Shown here in pieces: positions 2,499 through 42,091 of a DNA stretch of 64,000 bases. Location of the stretch: positions 26,556-90,555 of the forward strand of contig CAZQTW010000011.1 in assembly GCA_964596165.1 (NCBI GenBank), read 5' to 3'. The position numbers were made by a program, and so were the translations under genes. The first letter of the stretch is position 1; every line of letters begins with the position of its first letter. The DNA comes from an uncultured Planctomycetales bacterium (lineage in GTDB: Bacteria > Planctomycetota > Phycisphaerae > UBA1845 > JAFGLZ01). The notes under the pieces are model-generated. The model saw only the letters and a program-made list of their open reading frames with translations. It was not told the DNA's origin and made no database searches.

Positions 2499-3800
2499 TT
2501 ACGACCATCGGTCTCTCTCACGAAATCCGTTCTTGTCCAGCCCAAGAATCGGTCCGATGACCTGCTGGAACGTACTGGCGGTCGTGGTTTCGGCGTAGTG
2601 ATGGGCGTAGGGCCTGCCCTCATCGCAGGCCAGGGCGATCTTGGGATCGATGGGGATACGCCCCAAAAACGGTACGTCCATCTCCTTGGCCATCCGTTCC
2701 CCGCCGCCGCTCTTGAAAATGTCCGTCACCTCGCCGCACTGGGGACACGCAAAACCGCTCATGTTCTCCACCACGCCGAGCACCGGCATGCGCACCTGCC
2801 GGCAGAACGTCACACACCGGCGGACATCGGACAACGCCACCTCTTGCGGCGTGGTGACGATCACGGCCCCATCGGCATCGGGAATGAGCTGACAGACCGA
2901 CAACGGTTCGTCACCCGTGCCCGGCGGCGAGTCGATGACCAGAAAATCCAGTTCACCCCATTCAACGTCCTTTATAAACTGCTTGATGACCCCCATCTTG
3001 AGCGGACCCCGCCAGATGACCGCGTCGCTCCGTCCCGACAGCAGCAGACCGATGGACACGACCTTCAGATCGCCGATCTCGAAGGGGACGAGCGTCTGGT
3101 TCTCCACCTCCAATCGCTTGCCCTCCAACCCCAGCATCCTCGGGATGCTCGGGCCGTGGATGTCCACGTCCAGAAGCCCTACCCGTTTGCCGGACAGAGA
3201 GAGTGAAACGGCCAGATTCACCGCGACGGTGCTCTTGCCCACTCCCCCCTTGCCGGAGAGCACAAGAACTTTGTGTTTGATCTGACAGAGCCGCCGTTGA
3301 AGCGCTTGGCGATCCTCGAACTCCTGGGTCGATTCGCCTTCACGGGCCGTCTTGGCGTCACAGCTTTCATCGGAACAACTTCCGCACCCCTGATCTCGCC
3401 GGCCGTCCGCCTTGGACCGCTCCTTCATCCGCTTCAGTGAATCCTCGACCGCCGCCCTGAGCGTGTTGGCCGCCAGCAGCGCGCAGTGCCTGGATTCTTC
3501 CGTCAGCCCCCCCAGGGCATCGATGATGTCCTGCTGCCGAATCTGAGCCGCCTCCATCAGCGACTTCCCGACGGCCAACTCGGTCGCCATGCTGCCCGAG
3601 GCGATGCTCGGACCGCATCCGTCCGTTTCGAAAGTCGCCTGCACGATGCGCCCGTCGTCGTTCTTGATCCAGATCTCCATGGTGTCGCCGCAGGGGCCCG
3701 TAATCCGCGCGTGTCCTGATGCGCCACTCAGTGCCCCACGGTTTCGGGGATGATCGAATCGCTCAATCGCCCCTTGCCCATAGTCGTTTTCGCCGCTCAT
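2499..3800 (-). CDS. IscU/NifU-like scaffold domain fused to an Mrp/NBP35 (ApbC-type) P-loop ATPase
   Basis: N-terminus: HPRNRGAL...GPCGDTMEIWIK...FETDGCGPSIASGSMATEL...SRHCALLAANTL (IscU signature Cys residues). C-terminus: VLVLSGKGGVGKSTVAVNLA...CPQCGE (Mrp family). Start chosen at the ATG preceded by AGGAGCAAGGAA. Confidence 0.85.
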   Translation of the reverse strand: MSGENDYGQGAIERFDHPRNRGALSGASGHARITGPCGDTMEIWIKNDDGRIVQATFETDGCGPSIASGSMATELAVGKSLMEAAQIRQQDIIDALGGLTEESRHCALLAANTLRAAVEDSLKRMKERSKADGRRDQGCGSCSDESCDAKTAREGESTQEFEDRQALQRRLCQIKHKVLVLSGKGGVGKSTVAVNLAVSLSLSGKRVGLLDVDIHGPSIPRMLGLEGKRLEVENQTLVPFEIGDLKVVSIGLLLSGRSDAVIWRGPLKMGVIKQFIKDVEWGELDFLVIDSPPGTGDEPLSVCQLIPDADGAVIVTTPQEVALSDVRRCVTFCRQVRMPVLGVVENMSGFACPQCGEVTDIFKSGGGERMAKEMDVPFLGRIPIDPKIALACDEGRPYAHHYAETTTASTFQQVIGPILGLDKNGFRERDRWS

Positions 3801-12416: not shown

Positions 12417-12675
12417 TCATCGTGTCCCGCCTCATGGGCATCCTTGCGGCGGACCCGCACATGGGTGATGCCGATCGTGTCGGACGCCCCCCCACCGTCC
12501 CGCGCCCTTCCGGGTGACATCATCCAGTATACAACGGCCCGCTCCTAAACGCAGACGGGAGGCAGAGGAACCATGCCAAACGGTGACGCAGCGGATCGAG
12601 CTGATGAAGGCCGTTGGAGAACGGGAACTCCGGCAGCTTCGCCCAACGAACCCAACGGACGTGTCGCCCCCACGG

Positions 12676-15018
12676 TCAATGCGGCGGCGGACACCACTGG
12701 TTCTCGCCCGGCAGGCATTCCGGCTTGGGCGGATACGGCCCCGGGCCGATCGGCTTGAGGCGCTCCGCCGGGGTACAGGGGCCGCCGGCCCCGTCCGGAC
12801 AGGTCATGTTCGGCGTGCTGGTGGGCGGCTTGGGCGCCTTGACAATGACCTCGTAGACTTGCCCGTCGGGCCCGGTGTAGCACCATGTGTTCGCGATCGG
12901 CTTTCCGTATACGTCGAGACAGAGGGTGTTCGGGTCCACGTCAAACGACGCGCTCGTCAGGTCGGCACCCGCCAGGAACGCCTGCGTAAAGTCCGTGCCC
13001 TGGAGATAGGCCAGGTGGAAGTGCGCGCCCGCCAGCGACGCCCCGACGAACTTGCAGTTGACCAGGACGGCGTAATCGAAATTCGCGTTGGAGGCCTTGG
13101 CATTGGTGAAGTCCATACCCGACGCGACGCAGCCGGCAAGATCGACGCCGTCCATCTTGGCGTTCTGCAAAGTGGCGTTCTTTCCGTACAGGTGGGCGCC
13201 GGCCAAGCGAACGTTCCGAAGATCGGCCCCCTCCAGGTTGACGTTCGGCATGAAGGCGTGATCAAGGATGGCCGGACCGGGATGGTCGGTCGGGCTGGCA
13301 GTGCCCAGGAGGATGCCCTGCAAATTGGCCCCCTCTAGGTCGGCGTAGGCGAGGTGCGCGCCGAGTGCAACCGCGTTGCTCAGGTTCGCCGACTGAAGGT
13401 CGGCCTGGTTCAGGACCGCTCCGATCAGCGTCGCGCCGGCCAGATTACATTCGCGCATGTCGGCGCCCGTGAAATCCGCACCGTCGCACACTGCTCCCCG
13501 CAGGTCGACGCCGGTCATTCGGACATTCCGGAAGGAGCAGCCGGTCAGGTCGGCACGAGGGGTTATCGTCGCCTTCGACATGTTCGCGCTGTCGAAGTTG
13601 CAGTCCTTGAGCGGCTCCGCGCCGGTCAGGTCACAGCCGGCCATGTTGAGTCCGGTGAAACACATCGCATTGACGTGCTTTACGCCCTTGAGACTGGCGC
13701 CCTGGAGGCTCTTGAGATTGCTCCAGTTGACTCCGATGGCGTCGATATGGTCCAGCCTGGCGTTCGCCAGGTCGGCGCCCTCGAAGTTCGCGCCCGTCAG
13801 GTTTGCGGAGGAGAAGTCGCAGCCCTGCAGGTTCGCTCCGGAAAAGTCGGCGTTCCCCGACAGTGTCGAGCCCGCGAACGAGACGCCCTGCGCCGCGGCG
13901 ATTTCCTTGAAGGTACAGTGCCTCAGATCCAGGCCGGAAAAGTCCGCCCCAGATAGATCCGCGCGGGCAAACGAGCCGTACCAGTACACATAGGGAGAGT
14001 GCACGAGCGTCGCCCCACTGAGGTCGGACCCGGTAAAGTCGATCCACCTCCAAGTCCCCTGGAACGTCGTCCCCGTCAGATCGCTGGAAACGAAGCTGGC
14101 CCCCAACGGCACATCCGTCTGTTCCGCCGCCAGATCGAATGACGCGCCGGCCATGGCGCATTGATCGAACGTGGCATCCCCCATCCTTAGCGGAGATTGG
14201 CAAAGGCTGTCGGAATCCGGCTGCTGGAACCTCGCCCCGGCGAAGTTGCAGAGCGTCATCCTAACGCCGAAGAAGTTGCAACCGACAAACGAACAATTCG
14301 AGAAGTCCTTGTCGGAGAACTCCTGATAGCTTGCTTCCCAGCAGGAGAACGTCAGCCCGGCGGCCGAATCGCTCACGGTGAGGTTCCAAGGCAGCGGCTT
14401 GATCGACCCTCCGGGACAGTCCGTCGCATGTTTCGCCACCTGCGACTTGAGAAGCGGCACCCTCCGGGCTTCTCCGGAGAGCGTGAGGAACAGGACGTCA
14501 CCAGGCGCTTCGGGCAGTCCCTTTTGGGCATGCCGAACGTGCAGCGTGTAGCGCCCCGGGTCAATCATAACGGCAGGCGCGTCGGCGCCGTTGGTCGCGG
14601 CGACTAGTTCGCGCCCTGTTTCGTCACGCAGAACGGCGCTGTGGCCGCGCTGGTTGCCCAGGGCGAATCGTATCGAGATCTGCATCCGATCGCGGAAATA
14701 ATAGGGAATCTCGTCCACGCCCGTCTCGTTGCCGGTATCGCCTTCCTCCGATTCGGCCGCGCGGAGATCGAGCACCACGATATCACCGAGCCCGACAGTC
14801 AAATTAGGGTCCGCGGCGAACTCCCGCTCGCAGAAGGCGTTCTTGCCCCCTCGGGCTACGGAGGCCGGCTCGGGGTCGGGGTTCTGCCACGGCCACACGA
14901 AACAGCCGCCGGGTAGCAGCGACAGGGCAACAAGGCAGAGCGCCAGAGCCCCGGCTCCCGAGAGCAGCGAGACGCACCCATGCCGATTCCAACCGTTGTG
15001 CCGATTATTCAGGTCCAT
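12676..15018 (-). CDS. Pentapeptide-repeat lipoprotein (780 aa) with a Cys/Pro-rich C-terminal tail
   Basis: Signal peptide with LLPGGC lipobox. About 450 aa of A(D/N)LxG-type pentapeptide repeats (ANLQGCDFSSANLTGANFEGADLANARL...). Tail: IGPGPYPPKPECLPGENQWCPPPH. Confidence 0.85.
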   Translation of the reverse strand: MDLNNRHNGWNRHGCVSLLSGAGALALCLVALSLLPGGCFVWPWQNPDPEPASVARGGKNAFCEREFAADPNLTVGLGDIVVLDLRAAESEEGDTGNETGVDEIPYYFRDRMQISIRFALGNQRGHSAVLRDETGRELVAATNGADAPAVMIDPGRYTLHVRHAQKGLPEAPGDVLFLTLSGEARRVPLLKSQVAKHATDCPGGSIKPLPWNLTVSDSAAGLTFSCWEASYQEFSDKDFSNCSFVGCNFFGVRMTLCNFAGARFQQPDSDSLCQSPLRMGDATFDQCAMAGASFDLAAEQTDVPLGASFVSSDLTGTTFQGTWRWIDFTGSDLSGATLVHSPYVYWYGSFARADLSGADFSGLDLRHCTFKEIAAAQGVSFAGSTLSGNADFSGANLQGCDFSSANLTGANFEGADLANARLDHIDAIGVNWSNLKSLQGASLKGVKHVNAMCFTGLNMAGCDLTGAEPLKDCNFDSANMSKATITPRADLTGCSFRNVRMTGVDLRGAVCDGADFTGADMRECNLAGATLIGAVLNQADLQSANLSNAVALGAHLAYADLEGANLQGILLGTASPTDHPGPAILDHAFMPNVNLEGADLRNVRLAGAHLYGKNATLQNAKMDGVDLAGCVASGMDFTNAKASNANFDYAVLVNCKFVGASLAGAHFHLAYLQGTDFTQAFLAGADLTSASFDVDPNTLCLDVYGKPIANTWCYTGPDGQVYEVIVKAPKPPTSTPNMTCPDGAGGPCTPAERLKPIGPGPYPPKPECLPGENQWCPPPH

Positions 15019-15057
15019 GATTGATCCTCGTCGTTCCGTTCGATACGCGCCGTGGCC

Positions 15058-15134
15058 TCAGTGCGGCGGCGGACACCATTCGTTTTCACCGGGGAGGCAT
15101 TCCGGCTTCGGCGGATACGGCCCCGGGCCGATCA
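15058..15134 (-). pseudogene. Orphan copy of the Cys/Pro C-terminal tail, with no intact ORF context
   Basis: The minus strand encodes (L)IGPGPYPPKPECLPGENEWCPPPH-stop, matching the last 25 codons of 12676-15018. An in-frame TGA lies 9 codons upstream of the Ile and there is no start codon. Confidence 0.5.
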
Positions 15135-15205
15135 GGGTGTCGACAGGCTCGGTTCGGGTTCACGCGTCACCTCCCACACAACCGCCGGAGACGAGTCGGG
15201 CGACG

Positions 15206-18200
15206 TCAACTTCCGCAAATCGACGGATTGACGATCGTGTTCGGCGCGTCGCTTCCCGGCGTGGACGGCGTCCACTGCGAGAGCGAAGGTTCGGTCAGGC
15301 CGTTTGGGCCGACGAACGACTCGTAGTTGAGCGAATACACCGTTCGCCAGTAGTCCACGGCGATGCGGGCGGCGGGCACCCCCTCCGTTCGGGACAGCCA
15401 CACGCCGTCCGGCTTGTAAACATCGAGGAAGTAGTCGGCGGGCTGCAGGCCCGTGCCCGTATACCCCAGAACGTAGAGGTAGCCGGCCGCCTCAACCTTC
15501 ATGTCAAGATAGACGGCGGTGTTGGGCGGATCCTTCAACGGCATCGTGCTGGAGGTCTTGTCGGCGAAATAGGCGACGGCGTTTCCGGTCACGTCGAAAG
15601 CCTGGATGCGATTGTTTCCGGCTTCCAGGACAACAATGGTCCCGTCGGGCGTGACCGAAATGGCCACGGGCGAATTCAAGAGGCCGACGCGAGTCCCAGG
15701 TCCCGCCTTCAACGTGGACATGACCGACGTGTCGTCCGGCTTCGGTTCGTCCTCGAGCTTGATGATCTCCATCTTGTGGCTGCTCGTGTTGACCCCCACG
15801 ATGTAGCCGGCCGGATGGACGGCGACGGCGTTCATCACCTGGCTGAACCGTCCCCAACTCCGGATCTGATGCGTGTCCATCGGCGTGGTCTTGTCCAGGA
15901 CGATCGACCGCACGTGGTAGTCGCCGTTCCGGGCGTCGATGAAAAAGTTCTTGCCGCGTCCGGACGCCGGACCCATCAGGTCATACGCCATGGCCGGCAT
16001 CTGTACGTAGCCGCACCCCGACGTCTTCAGTCCGTCGTCGGGCGGGTTGTTCAGCGAGATGTTGCGCAGCGTGTACAGCAGCGTGGCTCCTCCGGTGTTG
16101 TCGCACGTGTGGGTCTGCCCGCCGCCCAGGAAGCCGTAGCCCAGCATGCCGGTGAGCTGGCTGACCGTCAGATTCACGAGGCTGCACAGACCGGTGTTGC
16201 TCGCGCAGTCCAAGTCTCCGCGGGTGGCCGTCGGGGCCGAGGTGGCGGACCAGTGGTGGGCACCTCCGGCATACGTCAGCTTCTGGTAGTGCGAGTATTT
16301 CGTGTTCTTCGTCAGCGGGACCTGGTTCTCGGTAATCGTGACGGTCACTGCGCCGGCGGACTCCGGCGTGTTGGGGATCGGACCGACCTTGCCCGTGTTG
16401 TCGAGGACGCCGCCGTAACCGGCGATCCAGTCGTCGTCCGAGAGGAACCAGGTCTCGATCTGAACCGTGCCGCCCTCGGGAACGTTCGTGAAGTTCACGA
16501 CGATATCGGCCGACGTGGTGCCCGTCAGCTTGCCGCAGTAGTAGCGGGTCGTCTTCTTGCCGTACAGGGCCCGTACGACGTACTTTCGCGCGACCAGCGG
16601 GAAGTGGGTGTCCTTCGGGTCGTGCTTGATCGTCACCTGCGTGTTCATGGTGGCCGACAGCGTATTGTCGAAAATCGCCGGGGATGCCAGGACCTCCCCG
16701 ACGGTCTGACCGATCTGCGACACCGTGGCGCCGATGGACAGGGCCTTCACCGCCCAGCCGACGAACGGGATGGCCTGCACGAGTTCCTCCGCCGTTGCAT
16801 AGGCCAGGATTCGGGCCAAGAGGGCGGGTATCTTCATGATGACGAGGCTTACGATGACGTTGGCGACGTCGATGATCACCGGACGAATACTGCCTGAGAA
16901 ATAGGCGTGAATGGCCTCGCCGCCGGTGATGATGGGAAAGAGAATCCCGGCGATCGCCCACTTGATGTCGGGGTCTTTCAGCAGATCCGAAATCCACTTG
17001 GAGGATTGAAGGCCCACGCCCAGCGACAGCAGGAGCGTCGGGATCCCGATATTCAGCACCAACGTCCAGGCCGAAGGATTGGCCGCCTCTTCGCTGAACG
17101 CACCGCCGCCCACGCCCAACGACCCGAAGATGATCCGGGCGGACGTGGCGTCCGCCGGCAGTGTGATGTTGAGCTTCGTCTTTTCCAGAAGGTCGCCCGT
17201 CAGGGGGATCCCCATGATCGTACTGTTCGAGTTGACGTCGTCCAGGTACTGGGAGTTCCTCGACGCAATATCATGCTCGCCGGGGTTCGCCAACGGCAGG
17301 ACGTTCCCATCGGCGTCCAGGTACTGTGCCCAGGCGGCCGCGCACCGCAGGTAAAGGTTGTCCACCGTCAGTCTGACCGCTCGGCTGGCGGCGTCGGTCA
17401 CTTGGAAATCGTAGTATCGGATGCCGTGCACCCTCGATCCGACGGCGTCGTGGAGGGCATAGTTGGTCGCCGCTGCCGGCGCCTCCAGCCCCGGCGCCAC
17501 GCCGTCCGGTCCAACCATGGTGAATCCGTCGGCGGGATGCCACTGTTGGTCCTGGAAGTCCGCGTCGTCGAAGATCAGCGCCTTGACCTCATCGATCGTG
17601 TCGCCGAGCCGCTCGTTGGTTTGATCCGAGGGAACCTGCTCGTAAACCGGCTTGCCGTCTGGGCCGATGACGGGGTTCCCGTCCGGGTCCTTTGAAGGGA
17701 CGATGCGGAGGTAGCCGTTGCTGACGCCCGCCGGCCCCTGCGCCATGATACAGTTCACCAAAAGGGTGAACGACGGAGCAACCTCGATCGCGGGATCGAC
17801 CAGGGCCGCGATCTTCGGATCGAGGTTCATGATGTCCGGATGGTGGAACACCAGCGATTTGCCGGCGGCGATCCACGTGTTGATGTCGTTGATCCAGGTC
17901 AGGACCTGCGCCGTGGCCTCGATGTCTTGGCCGCTCCGGACGCCTTCCGGCAGTTGGACCCCGTAGGTCCTGAGGAACGTGTGGGAGGACTCGCTGAGGG
18001 CGTGCGTCAACAGGCCGGACTCCACCTTCGCCCGCCGCCGCTGCGCCGCGTGACGCCAGGCGTACGACGGAATGTGGATGCTCGTCATCACCACCGCTTC
18101 CACGGGGCCGGTGTCGGTCTCGATCTGCATCGAGACATACCAGTGCTGACAGGCGTCGGCGGGCAGGTCCACGTCTTCAGCGTAGTGCGTCAGCCGCTCG

Positions 18201-41311: not shown

Positions 41312-42091
41312 ATGAAGAAGAACATTGCAGTTGTCTGTTTGGGAACATGTTGTCTTGCGTCTGCCGGAGAGGTGCTGGCCAACGAGAGGACCGATGATCC
41401 TCTTGGCATCGCCATATCACCTCAAGCACTGATCCTTGGGGCTGAACAAAGCGGGCGCGTAACGGTCCATACCGACATCGCCGGGAGCACAGTGGATCGC
41501 TCCACGGTCGCTCTGGAGGGCATTCCGGCATCAAGTACCTGGGTTGATTTGAGGGGGAATCTCGTCGCAGGTTTCCCGGAGGCTGACGTCAAGGCCTTCG
41601 TCGCACCACCCGAAGCGACCTTGACGCTTACCGGCAATAGACTGGACGGGACACCCTTTGAGGGATCGGACACCGTTACCGTGCTGGATTCAACTGAACC
41701 CCACGCGTCGAGCATATTGGCGGAGTCTACCGGCTTCATTATCTGTGATCCCAACTGTTCCGAACCCAATATCTGCGACCCGAACTGGTCAGGCCCCAAT
41801 CGGTGTGATCCCAACCGCGCGGATCCCAATACCTGTGACCCCGACTGGTCGGGTCCTAATCGGTCTGATCCTACCAGGTCAGGTCTCAATTACTGTGATC
41901 CAAATTGTTGCGATCCCAACTGTTCAGGTCCCAATTCGTGTGAGCCGAACAGCTCAGGTCCCAACACGGTCGACCCTGACGTAGTCGATCCACTAATGGC
42001 GACGAACAGGTGTGGAGACACTGCCGTTCTCCCCCTAGCGTTAACACTGGGCATGCTGGGTCTTGTCTCGGCAATGAGGCGCAGGGCGTAG
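41312..42091 (+). CDS. Paralog of 40347-40811 with a 17-unit Cys-rich xx[DEG]PN repeat stalk and a CG-TM-RRR tail
   Basis: Roughly half of the N-terminal domain residues match by eye (DDPLGIAISPQALILGAEQSGRVTVHT vs EDPIGVAISPQTLILGTDQGGRVTVNT). Tail: TNRCGDTAVLPLALTLGMLGLVSAMRRRA. Confidence 0.75.
   Translation: MKKNIAVVCLGTCCLASAGEVLANERTDDPLGIAISPQALILGAEQSGRVTVHTDIAGSTVDRSTVALEGIPASSTWVDLRGNLVAGFPEADVKAFVAPPEATLTLTGNRLDGTPFEGSDTVTVLDSTEPHASSILAESTGFIICDPNCSEPNICDPNWSGPNRCDPNRADPNTCDPDWSGPNRSDPTRSGLNYCDPNCCDPNCSGPNSCEPNSSGPNTVDPDVVDPLMATNRCGDTAVLPLALTLGMLGLVSAMRRRA
41741..41992 (+). repeat. In-frame 15-bp tandem repeat (about 17 units) encoding the pentapeptide xx(D/E/G)PN
   Basis: Units read ICDPN CSEPN ICDPN WSGPN RCDPN RADPN TCDPD WSGPN RSDPT RSGLN YCDPN CCDPN CSGPN SCEPN SSGPN TVDPD VVDPL. 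Confidence 0.9.

What the first reader, a model, noticed from the sequence alone, without database searches (positions are those of the whole stretch)
15058..15210. Orphan second copy of a Cys/Pro C-terminal tail that differs almost only at synonymous sites but has no ORF
The last 25 codons of the pentapeptide gene (12676-12750: IGPGPYPPKPECLPGENQWCPPPH-stop) recur at 15058-15132, just downstream of the 1117-aa gene. Across 75 aligned nt I count 8 differences. Seven are at third codon positions and the only amino-acid change is Q to E, which is a purifying-selection signature. Yet the copy has an in-frame TGA 9 codons upstream and no start codon. A TTG (15209-15207) overlaps the TGA stop of the 1117-aa gene (TTGA) and opens a 25-codon Pro/Ser/Glu-rich frame, which ends at 15134-15132. 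One extra C in the CCC run (15135-15137) would fuse this frame to the tail, and one extra A near 15210 would fuse everything to the 1117-aa protein. Three explanations fit. The tail may be a shared C-terminal module of both proteins, disrupted here by indels or assembly errors. It may be an unannotated ~50-aa peptide. Or it may be the remnant of a deleted paralog.
Basis: seen in the sequence. Interest (0 to 1): 0.6.

Follow-up and report, generated by a model that had tools for sequence, protein, structure and literature searches.

The report
Deletion relic of a duplicate gene
The stray 75-base copy of the Cys/Pro tail is the leftover end of a second, tandem pentapeptide-repeat lipoprotein gene whose body was cut out between two copies of a 10-base repeat; it is an ordinary gene remnant, not a hidden peptide or a broken end of the neighbouring 1117-aa protein.

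Summary
Window 15058-15132 repeats 12676-12750 (67/75 nt; 7 of 8 differences at third codon positions; only Q->E), and no ORF covers the copy. It is not a sequencing error: four other assemblies have the identical sequence, and a relative at 75% protein identity has the same frame-breaking layout. The tail does not belong to the 1117-aa protein: 34 homologues all end near EPSLSQWxPSTPG without it. It is the second half of a conserved 4-Cys C-terminal module of the pentapeptide-repeat lipoprotein that always partners the large gene. The decisive evidence is contig L014, 99.5% identical to the window over 7 kb. After the same stop codon, the same "bridge", a GGGAGG ribosome-binding site and a GTG, it continues into an intact pentapeptide-lipoprotein 5' end. 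Collinearity stops at window 15123. The tail homology starts at 15132. The 10 shared bases (ATCGGCCCGG) occur in both parental contexts. So the locus once held two tandem pentapeptide genes, and the upstream copy lost about 2 kb by an out-of-frame deletion between short direct repeats. The synonymous bias is inherited from when that copy was functional. This is an ordinary relic of low interest.

The parts
15206..18559 (-). 1117-aa Tat-signal/lipobox protein with an NHL repeat (function unknown). It is complete at its C-terminus.
   Evidence: In some searches homologues end at the same place (...EPSLSQWxPSTPG plus 0-30 aa) and none has the Cys/Pro tail.
15164..15205 (-). Former intergenic/5' UTR of the deleted upstream pentapeptide gene. 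It includes the Shine-Dalgarno GGGAGG at 15175-15170, 6 nt before the GTG.
   Evidence: sequence. Searches show it is identical in L014, where it precedes an intact gene.
15123..15163 (-). 5' stub of the deleted pentapeptide-lipoprotein gene: GTG 15163-15161 plus about 13 codons (VNPNRACRHPDRPG), the n-region of a lipoprotein signal peptide.
   Evidence: L014 reads VNPNRGCQHPHRPG and then continues RGFAHAMAVLAVVLPLALGGCPFWLWPNPNPDTASVARGGKNAF. tblastn of that peptide hits 15163-15104.
15123..15132 (-). Deletion junction: the 10-nt microhomology ATCGGCCCGG. It is read as (C/G)AT CGG CCC GG in the 5' stub and as ATC GGC CCG G in the tail, so the join is out of frame.
   Evidence: Three-way comparison. 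The blastn alignment of L014 to the window (99.48% over 7055 nt, no gaps) ends at 15123. Homology to the real tail begins at 15132.
15058..15132 (-). Orphan tail: the last 24 codons plus the stop of the deleted gene (IGPGPYPPKPECLPGENEWCPPPH*). No ORF covers it.
15086..15163 (-). Residual mini-ORF left by the deletion (GTG, 25 aa, VNPNRACRHPDRPGAVSAEAGMPPR*). It reads the tail out of frame and its length is not conserved (51 aa in the relative).
15019..15057 (-). 39-nt spacer between the relic's stop and the ATG of the surviving pentapeptide gene.
12676..15018 (-). Surviving pentapeptide-repeat lipoprotein gene (780 aa). Its C-terminal tail is at 12676-12750 and its own copy of ATCGGCCCGG is at 12750-12741.
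   Evidence: Family conservation of the 4-Cys C-terminal module is shown.

Best explanation
The locus originally carried the large gene followed by two tandem pentapeptide-repeat lipoprotein genes, A and B. Both ended in the family's conserved Cys/Pro C-terminal module, and both diverged under purifying selection. That history explains the third-position differences and the lack of similarity outside the coding sequence.

Gene A then lost almost its whole body (about 2 kb, inferred from the 2.0-2.3 kb length of family members). The deletion joined two copies of the 10-nt direct repeat ATCGGCCCGG. One copy lay in codons 11-14 of A's signal-peptide n-region. The other lay at codon -24 of its tail. 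The likely mechanism is replication slippage or microhomology-mediated end joining; this is inferred.

The join is out of frame. What remains is A's ribosome-binding site, GTG and 13-codon stub, fused to the last 24 codons read in the wrong frame. The open TTG frame across it and the 'one extra base would fuse it' arithmetic are coincidences of a GC-rich sequence. The relic has no demonstrated function.
For: SHOWN:

(a) L014 is 99.48% identical to the window over 7055 nt without gaps, up to window 15123. Beyond that point it encodes a bona fide lipoprotein signal peptide (lipobox LGGC) and the family's conserved mature N-terminus ASVARGGKNAF.

(b) Homology of the orphan to the real tail starts at 15132. 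The 10 nt from 15132 to 15123 are present in both L014's 5' end and the intact gene's tail. The chance of a 10-nt overlap at a junction is about 1e-6.

(c) The tail is the second half of a 4-Cys module, C-P-x-G-x2-G-P-C...G-P-[YF]-P-P-x-P-x-C-[VIL]-P...C. This module is invariant across the pentapeptide partner family and always C-terminal.

(d) The large gene and the pentapeptide gene form a conserved pair, normally overlapping by 4 nt or separated by 11-38 nt. Here the gap is 187 nt (15019-15205).

(e) Tandem arrays exist in the family: a Phycisphaerae MAG has the large gene followed by three pentapeptide paralogues, each with the tail.

(f) Homologues of the large protein never carry the tail.

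(g) The region has no Rfam match, no promoter or terminator motif in the relic, and its RNA fold is weaker than shuffled controls, z = +2.6.
Against: No genome with both A and B intact has been seen. L014 ends 66 nt past the junction, so A's body and its own tail are inferred, not observed.

The orphan tails of the window and of the 75%-identity relative differ at 14/75 nt, 10 of them at position 3 (p = 0.004). The adjacent stub and bridge differ at only 2/73 (Fisher p = 0.0026). A single shared deletion followed by neutral drift does not predict this. It requires either mosaic recombination (widespread at this locus) or independent deletion at the same repeat. Residual coding constraint is formally not excluded.

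Branch-specific counts are too small to decide: window orphan 4 of 5 at position 3, p = 0.045; relative 4 of 7, p = 0.17.
Confidence: 0.85

Rival explanations
1. The tail is the true C-terminus of the 1117-aa protein. It is separated from it by two sequencing or assembly indels, or it is reached by two programmed -1 frameshifts.
For: The arithmetic holds: the TTG frame (15209-15135) bridges the two, and two single-base additions would fuse them.
Against: The sequence is identical in 5 W-type assemblies, and the same stops occur in 3 assemblies of a diverged relative. All 34 homologues end without the tail. Neither site (GGAAGTTGA, ACACCCTGA) has an X XXY YYZ slippery heptamer. There is no stimulatory RNA structure. 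The bridge is demonstrably the 5' end of another gene, read in a third frame.
Confidence: 0.01
2. The tail is still translated as a small Cys/Pro peptide of about 24-33 aa. This would occur by non-canonical initiation (CUG 15135 or AUC 15132, overlapping the TGA of the upstream frame) or by a +1 shift from the GTG-initiated stub. It would therefore remain under purifying selection.
For: Third-position bias persists between the two orphan copies (10 of 14, p = 0.004). The tail diverged more than the flanking stub while keeping 20 of 24 residues. CTGATC is conserved in both lineages.
Against: There is no ATG, GTG or TTG and no SD in frame 0 in either lineage. There is no +1-prone motif. The orphan keeps only half of the 4-Cys module, detached from its beta-helix domain. 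The relative's orphan has 4 amino-acid changes in 24 residues (E11P, L13I, E18Q, H24Q). Branch-specific tests are weak (p = 0.045 and 0.17). The bias is explained if each tail was part of an intact gene until recently, as the intact 5' end in the 99.5%-identical strain L014 implies.
Confidence: 0.05
3. The relic is retained as a silent donor cassette that recombines with the C-terminal module of the expressed pentapeptide gene (gene conversion, pilS-like).
For: It is a promoterless, start-less in-frame copy of an expressed gene's end lying 2.4 kb away in direct orientation. The window's two copies are identical over the first 23 nt and over an 18-nt 3' block, TGGTGTCCGCCGCCGCA plus the preceding A.
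Against: There is a single cassette differing by one residue, so there is negligible diversity to donate. No mosaic alleles of the expressed tail are seen among 5 strain variants; the only variation is a CCG-repeat indel. Recombination between direct repeats would delete the whole gene rather than vary it.
Confidence: 0.03
4. The ancestor had a single gene and no tandem paralogue. The tail plus spacer plus the present gene's 5' end arrived as one imported segment by recombination with foreign DNA, not by deletion within a resident copy.
For: The locus is a recombination mosaic. The present gene's 5' region is only about 83% identical to L014's in the conserved mature N-terminus.
Against: The donor would itself need a tail-spacer-gene arrangement, that is, tandem copies, so the origin of the relic is the same one step removed. 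The 10-nt microhomology at the junction is still best read as a deletion or illegitimate join.
Confidence: 0.06

Closest known systems
Bacterial gene relics/pseudogenes produced by deletion between short direct repeats (slipped-strand mispairing or microhomology-mediated alternative end joining)
   Same: One copy of a 10-nt direct repeat is retained at the junction. Both parental contexts are identifiable. The reading frame is lost and the remaining fragment has no ORF. Microhomologies flanking deletions in bacterial pseudogenes, and their link to A-EJ and slipped-strand mispairing, are discussed in PMC6054270. The classic lacI deletions between short repeats (Albertini et al. 1982) are cited from my own knowledge.
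   Different: Nothing essential differs. The deletion is large (about 2 kb, inferred) and the relic sits in an operon-like gene pair. The same junction occurs in two diverged lineages, which needs recombination or recurrence to explain.
Tandem paralogue arrays of the pentapeptide-repeat lipoprotein that partners the large Tat-signal protein (e.g. Phycisphaerae MAG GCA_033764195.1, locus L015)
   Same: The gene order is the same (large gene, then pentapeptide genes). The lipoprotein signal and the C-terminal 4-Cys module ...GP[YF]PPxPxC[VIL]P....WCP.P are also the same.
   Different: In the window only one copy is intact. The upstream copy is reduced to 41 nt of 5' end plus 75 nt of 3' end.
Programmed ribosomal frameshifting (dnaX -1, prfB +1)
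   Same: There are stop codons and overlapping frames at the end of a gene, with a conserved-looking downstream coding segment.
   Different: There is no slippery site and no stimulatory structure. Two shifts would be needed, and no homologue has the fused product.
Silent cassettes for gene conversion (Neisseria pilS; own knowledge)
   Same: It is a start-less, promoter-less partial copy of an expressed gene's variable end that keeps codon register.
   Different: There is a single copy with one amino-acid difference and no evidence of exchange.

Membership tests
Gene relic from deletion between short direct repeats | The left flank is collinear with an intact homologous gene up to the junction | tested here: met
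   L014 vs window: 99.48% over 7055 nt with no gaps, ending at window 15123. L014 then continues as an intact lipoprotein gene.
Gene relic from deletion between short direct repeats | The right flank is homologous to a distal part of the same gene family, starting at the junction | tested here: met
   Homology to the real tail begins at 15132 and runs to the stop codon. The tail is the family's C-terminal module.
Gene relic from deletion between short direct repeats | The short repeat is present in both parental contexts, with one copy left at the junction | tested here: met
   ATCGGCCCGG occurs in L014's 5' end and at 12750-12741 in the intact gene. A single copy lies at 15132-15123.
Gene relic from deletion between short direct repeats | An undeleted ancestral gene (same copy, with body and tail) is observed | not testable with these tools
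   L014 ends 66 nt after the junction. No protein 40-95% identical to the surviving gene is in the databases. Tandem copies are seen only in a distant relative.
Gene relic from deletion between short direct repeats | Neutral evolution after the deletion | tested here: inconclusive
   Orphan-branch changes: window 1/0/4 by codon position (p = 0.045); relative 2/1/4 (p = 0.17). The pairwise orphan comparison is 3/1/10 (p = 0.004) but is confounded by mosaic recombination.
C-terminal 4-Cys module of pentapeptide-repeat lipoproteins | Complete motif CPxGxxGPC...GP[YF]PPxPxC[VIL]P...C attached to a pentapeptide beta-helix domain | tested here: not met
   The orphan keeps only the second half (2 of 4 Cys) and is attached to nothing. 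The 12676-15018 gene meets the feature fully.
Programmed ribosomal frameshift site | A slippery sequence, a stimulatory structure, and a fused product conserved in homologues | tested here: not met
   Neither frame boundary has a slippery heptamer. Fold z = +2.6. 34 homologues lack the tail.
Independent small ORF (micropeptide) | An in-frame start codon with a ribosome-binding site, conserved in relatives | tested here: not met
   Frame 0 has a TGA at 15162-15160 and then no ATG, GTG or TTG. The SD/GTG at 15175/15163 is in another frame. The TTG at 15209 is CTG in the relative.
Known structured RNA (Rfam 15) | A covariance-model match | tested here: not met
   No match with E <= 1 in 14700-15600 on either strand.

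The most novel reading that the evidence does not exclude
The relic is not dead. Its 24-codon Cys/Pro segment is still expressed, either by non-AUG initiation at the conserved CUG-AUC overlapping the upstream stop or by recoding from the SD-GTG stub. Alternatively, it serves as a recombination partner for the expressed gene's C-terminal module. Either reading would explain why the two orphan copies in diverged lineages differ mainly at synonymous sites while their flank is nearly identical.
Probability: 0.05. Interest if true: 0.5.

Novelty: new member of a known kind. Interest (0 to 1): 0.15.

Why it matters
Its main value is as a clean, fully resolved example for annotation. A start-less fragment with a textbook 'purifying-selection' substitution pattern turns out to be a deletion relic, so synonymous-biased divergence between two copies dates past selection, not present coding.

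It also documents copy-number turnover (1-3 tandem copies, with intact and deleted alleles in 99.5%-identical strains). This turnover affects a conserved but uncharacterised Planctomycetota gene pair: a large Tat-signal protein plus a pentapeptide-repeat lipoprotein with a 4-Cys C-terminal module. Finally, it warns against 'repairing' the 1117-aa gene by frameshift correction.

Tried and rejected
(1) A protein word-index search with the last 71 aa of the pentapeptide protein found nothing. This was uninformative, because the exact protein is in the collection. The exhaustive HMMER scan of 1.84 billion representatives replaced it: 9 hits, all pentapeptide proteins or short fragments.

(2) A degenerate DNA pattern for PGENxWCPP scanned against JGI metagenome contigs gave one hit, L005. 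It is an AT-rich chance match inside an unrelated gene.

(3) The genome-contig scan with the large protein returned only the already known MAG.

(4) The frame-1 translation of the bridge contains EPEPSLS, which resembles the large protein's conserved C-terminal TEPSLSQW. I considered a duplicated 3' end of the large gene. I rejected it because L014 shows the bridge is a 5' UTR plus a stub read in another frame.

(5) In the relative (L001), the pentapeptide gene's own tail diverges after PYPPNP into unrelated sequence 45 nt before the contig end. The contig end shares a 15-nt inverted match with other contig ends, so it is probably an assembly-end artefact and was not used.

(6) RNA-element readings (Rfam, terminator/promoter scan, folding) were all negative.

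It is not needed for the verdict.
Full report
**1. The observation.**

On the minus strand, window 15132..15058 and 12750..12676 align without gaps: 67 of 75 nt are identical. Seven of the eight differences are at third codon positions and one is at a first position. The peptides are IGPGPYPPKPECLPGENEWCPPPH* and ...NQW...H*. The probability of at least 7 of 8 differences at position 3 under a uniform model is 0.0026.

Similarity ends abruptly at ATC on one side and at the stop codon on the other. These are the only two copies in the window.

The frame description is correct:
- The tail frame has a TGA at 15162-15160 and no ATG, GTG or TTG after it.
- A TTG at 15209-15207 overlaps the large gene's stop (15208-15206) and opens a frame closed by TGA 15134-15132.

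**2. It is not an error.**

The window is not identical to any one database contig. It differs from JGI contig L004 by 10 SNPs and a 3-nt indel in 15.3 kb. The 15058-15210 region is nevertheless base-for-base identical in L004, L011, L012 and L013, from four JGI samples.

A relative is available: an uncultured Planctomycetales MAG, with 75% protein identity in the large gene. It was assembled three times (L001, L002, L003). It has the same stop of the large gene, the same TGA in the tail frame, the same CCCTGATCGG junction and a tail reading IGPGPYPPKPPCIPGENQWCPPPQ*.

**3. Whose tail is it?**

The 1117-aa protein has a Tat-like signal, a lipobox and an NHL repeat. It has 34 homologues, and all end at ...EPSLSQWxPSTPG plus 0-30 variable residues. 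None has the Cys/Pro tail. Its C-terminus in the window (…TEPSLSQWTPSTPGSDAPNTIVNPSICGS*) is therefore complete.

The pentapeptide-repeat lipoprotein is the conserved downstream partner of the large gene. The two genes overlap by 4 nt or lie 11-38 nt apart in L007, L008, L015 and L016. In L010 the partner is on the opposite strand.

This partner always ends in the motif C-P-x-G-x2-G-P-C-(T)-x3-L-x-P-x3-G-P-[YF]-P-P-x-P-x-C-[VIL]-P-x4-6-C. In a 16-sequence alignment, four Cys and several Gly/Pro of this module are invariant.

An exhaustive HMMER scan of 1.84 billion representative proteins with the last 80 aa found only 9 matches. All are pentapeptide proteins or short fragments. A degenerate DNA pattern scan of metagenome contigs found only a chance hit.

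So the tail is native to the pentapeptide gene. The orphan is a lineage-specific insert that widens the intergenic gap to 187 nt (15019-15205).

**4. The decisive locus.**

L014 is a Logan contig from run DRR490230. Its large protein sits in the same 90% cluster as the window's. L014 is 99.48% identical to the window over 7055 nt without a gap, and the alignment ends at window 15123.

After the same stop codon and the same 'bridge', L014 has GGGAGG, 6 nt, then GTG. It then reads VNPNRGCQHPHRPGRGFAHAMAVLAVVLPLALGGCPFWLWPNPNPDTASVARGGKNAF. That is a lipoprotein signal peptide with a lipobox, followed by the conserved mature N-terminus of the pentapeptide family. For comparison, the window's own gene reads ...LPGGCFVWPWQNPDPEPASVARGGKNAF.

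In the window the same GTG (15163-15161) gives VNPNRACRHPDRPG and then runs out of frame into the tail, stopping at 15088-15086.

Three-way comparison:

| Sequence | Left flank | Shared 10 nt | Right flank |
|---|---|---|---|
| L014 5' end | ...CACCCTC | ATCGGCCCGG | CCGCGGGTT... |
| Window orphan | ...CACCCTG | ATCGGCCCGG | GGCCGTATCC... |
| Intact tail | ...CTCAAGCCG | ATCGGCCCGG | GGCCGTATCC... |

The orphan matches the 5' end of a gene to the left and the tail to the right. A 10-nt block is common to both parents. That is the signature of a deletion between short direct repeats; the chance of a 10-nt overlap is about 1e-6. The repeat is read in different frames at the two sites, so the join is out of frame.

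**5. Model.**

- Shown: the bridge is the 5' UTR plus the first ~13 codons of a pentapeptide-lipoprotein gene.
- Shown: the orphan tail is the last 24 codons of such a gene.
- Shown: the two are joined at a microhomology.
- Inferred: they come from one gene (A) that stood in tandem upstream of the present gene (B), and it lost about 2 kb by slippage or microhomology-mediated joining.

Tandem arrays do exist in the family. A Phycisphaerae MAG has the large-gene homologue (39.6% identity, full length) followed by three pentapeptide paralogues, each with the tail.

The third-position bias between the orphan and the real tail then simply records A-B divergence under purifying selection while both genes were intact. 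The flanks are unalignable because A's downstream region (the spacer and B's start) and B's downstream region were never homologous.

Microhomology-flanked deletions are a known feature of bacterial pseudogene decay (PMC6054270).

**6. What does not fit neatly.**

The window's and the relative's orphan tails differ at 14/75 nt, with 10 at position 3 (p = 0.004). The adjacent bridge and stub differ at only 2/73 (Fisher p = 0.0026). One shared deletion followed by neutral drift would not give this pattern.

However, window-versus-relative identity along the locus is a mosaic of 95-100% and 40-80% patches. One 97% patch (15130-15360) ends exactly at the junction. In addition, an intact-5'-end allele persists in a strain 99.5% identical to the window.

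The simplest reading is that each orphan tail was part of a functional gene until recently. The deletion allele, or the stub-bearing patch, then moved between lineages by recombination, or the deletion recurred at the same repeat.

Branch-specific counts are too small to show selection on the orphan itself. The window orphan has 1/0/4 changes by codon position (p = 0.045). The relative has 2/1/4 (p = 0.17), including E11P and L13I. I therefore leave about 5% for residual expression.

**7. Alternatives examined.**

- Fusion to the large protein by indels or double frameshifting. This fails on reproducibility, on the homologues' C-termini, on the absence of slippery sites and on the third-frame identity of the bridge.
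- A small ORF. This fails on start codons. TTG becomes CTG in the relative. The relative's ATG is ACG in the window and lies in the non-tail frame.
- An RNA element. There is no Rfam match and no terminator or promoter in the relic, and folding is weaker than shuffled controls.
- A silent recombination cassette. This is not excluded, but nothing supports it.

**8. Verdict.**

The finding is a real sequence feature with an ordinary explanation: a microhomology-mediated deletion relic of a tandem paralogue. It is a new instance of a well-known kind. Interest is low (0.15). Its value is as an annotation lesson and as a record of copy-number turnover in an uncharacterised conserved gene pair.

Noticed in passing
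window 12681-12683: There is a 3-nt (CCG) indel polymorphism in the expressed gene's tail. The window, L011, L012 and L013 end ...WCPPPH, while JGI contig L004 ends ...WCPPH. It looks like slippage in the CCGCCGCCG run.
   Followed up: partly
L001 ~3310-3330 (also L002, L003): In the 75%-identity relative, the homologue of the 1117-aa gene carries a 1-nt deletion (GGTATATC vs GGTTATCTC). This splits it into 1039-aa and 88-aa ORFs, and the split is identical in three assemblies. The locus may be decaying there.
   Followed up: partly
window 12600-18800 vs L001: Nucleotide identity to the relative is a sharp mosaic (e.g. 98-100% over 13000-13600, 40-60% over 14400-14700). This indicates frequent homologous recombination between diverged lineages. 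One 97% patch (15130-15360) ends exactly at the deletion junction.
   Followed up: partly
window 12676-18559; L007, L008, L010, L015, L016: The large Tat-signal/NHL protein (~1100 aa, with hydrophobic segments mid-protein) and the pentapeptide-repeat lipoprotein form a conserved adjacent gene pair across Planctomycetota-like MAGs. No function is annotated. A Phycisphaerae MAG (L015) has three tandem pentapeptide copies.
   Followed up: partly
window 41312-42091 (+), repeats 41744-41968: A 259-aa ORF has a signal peptide and a run of 5/10-residue CDPNxSxPNx repeats (15/30-nt DNA period). It ends in a hydrophobic C-terminal segment finishing in RRRA, which resembles a PEP-CTERM-type sorting signal.
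   Followed up: no
window 46352-46715 and 50464-50828: Two direct-repeat blocks (213 nt at 86% and 105 nt at 88%) lie 4.1 kb apart. They probably mark paralogous genes.
   Followed up: no
L004 1-506 (window ~24025-24530): A neighbouring 1231-aa gene carries Laminin_G_3 and HZS_alpha (hydrazine-synthase alpha-like) Pfam hits. Another neighbouring gene, of 1244 aa, combines PQQ beta-propeller, methyltransferase and malectin domains.
   Followed up: no
L001 6080-6126: The relative's pentapeptide gene departs from the tail after ...GPGPYPPNP into unrelated sequence just before the contig end. That end shares a 15-nt inverted match with the starts of L002 and L003. It is probably an assembly break caused by the repeated tail.
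   Followed up: partly
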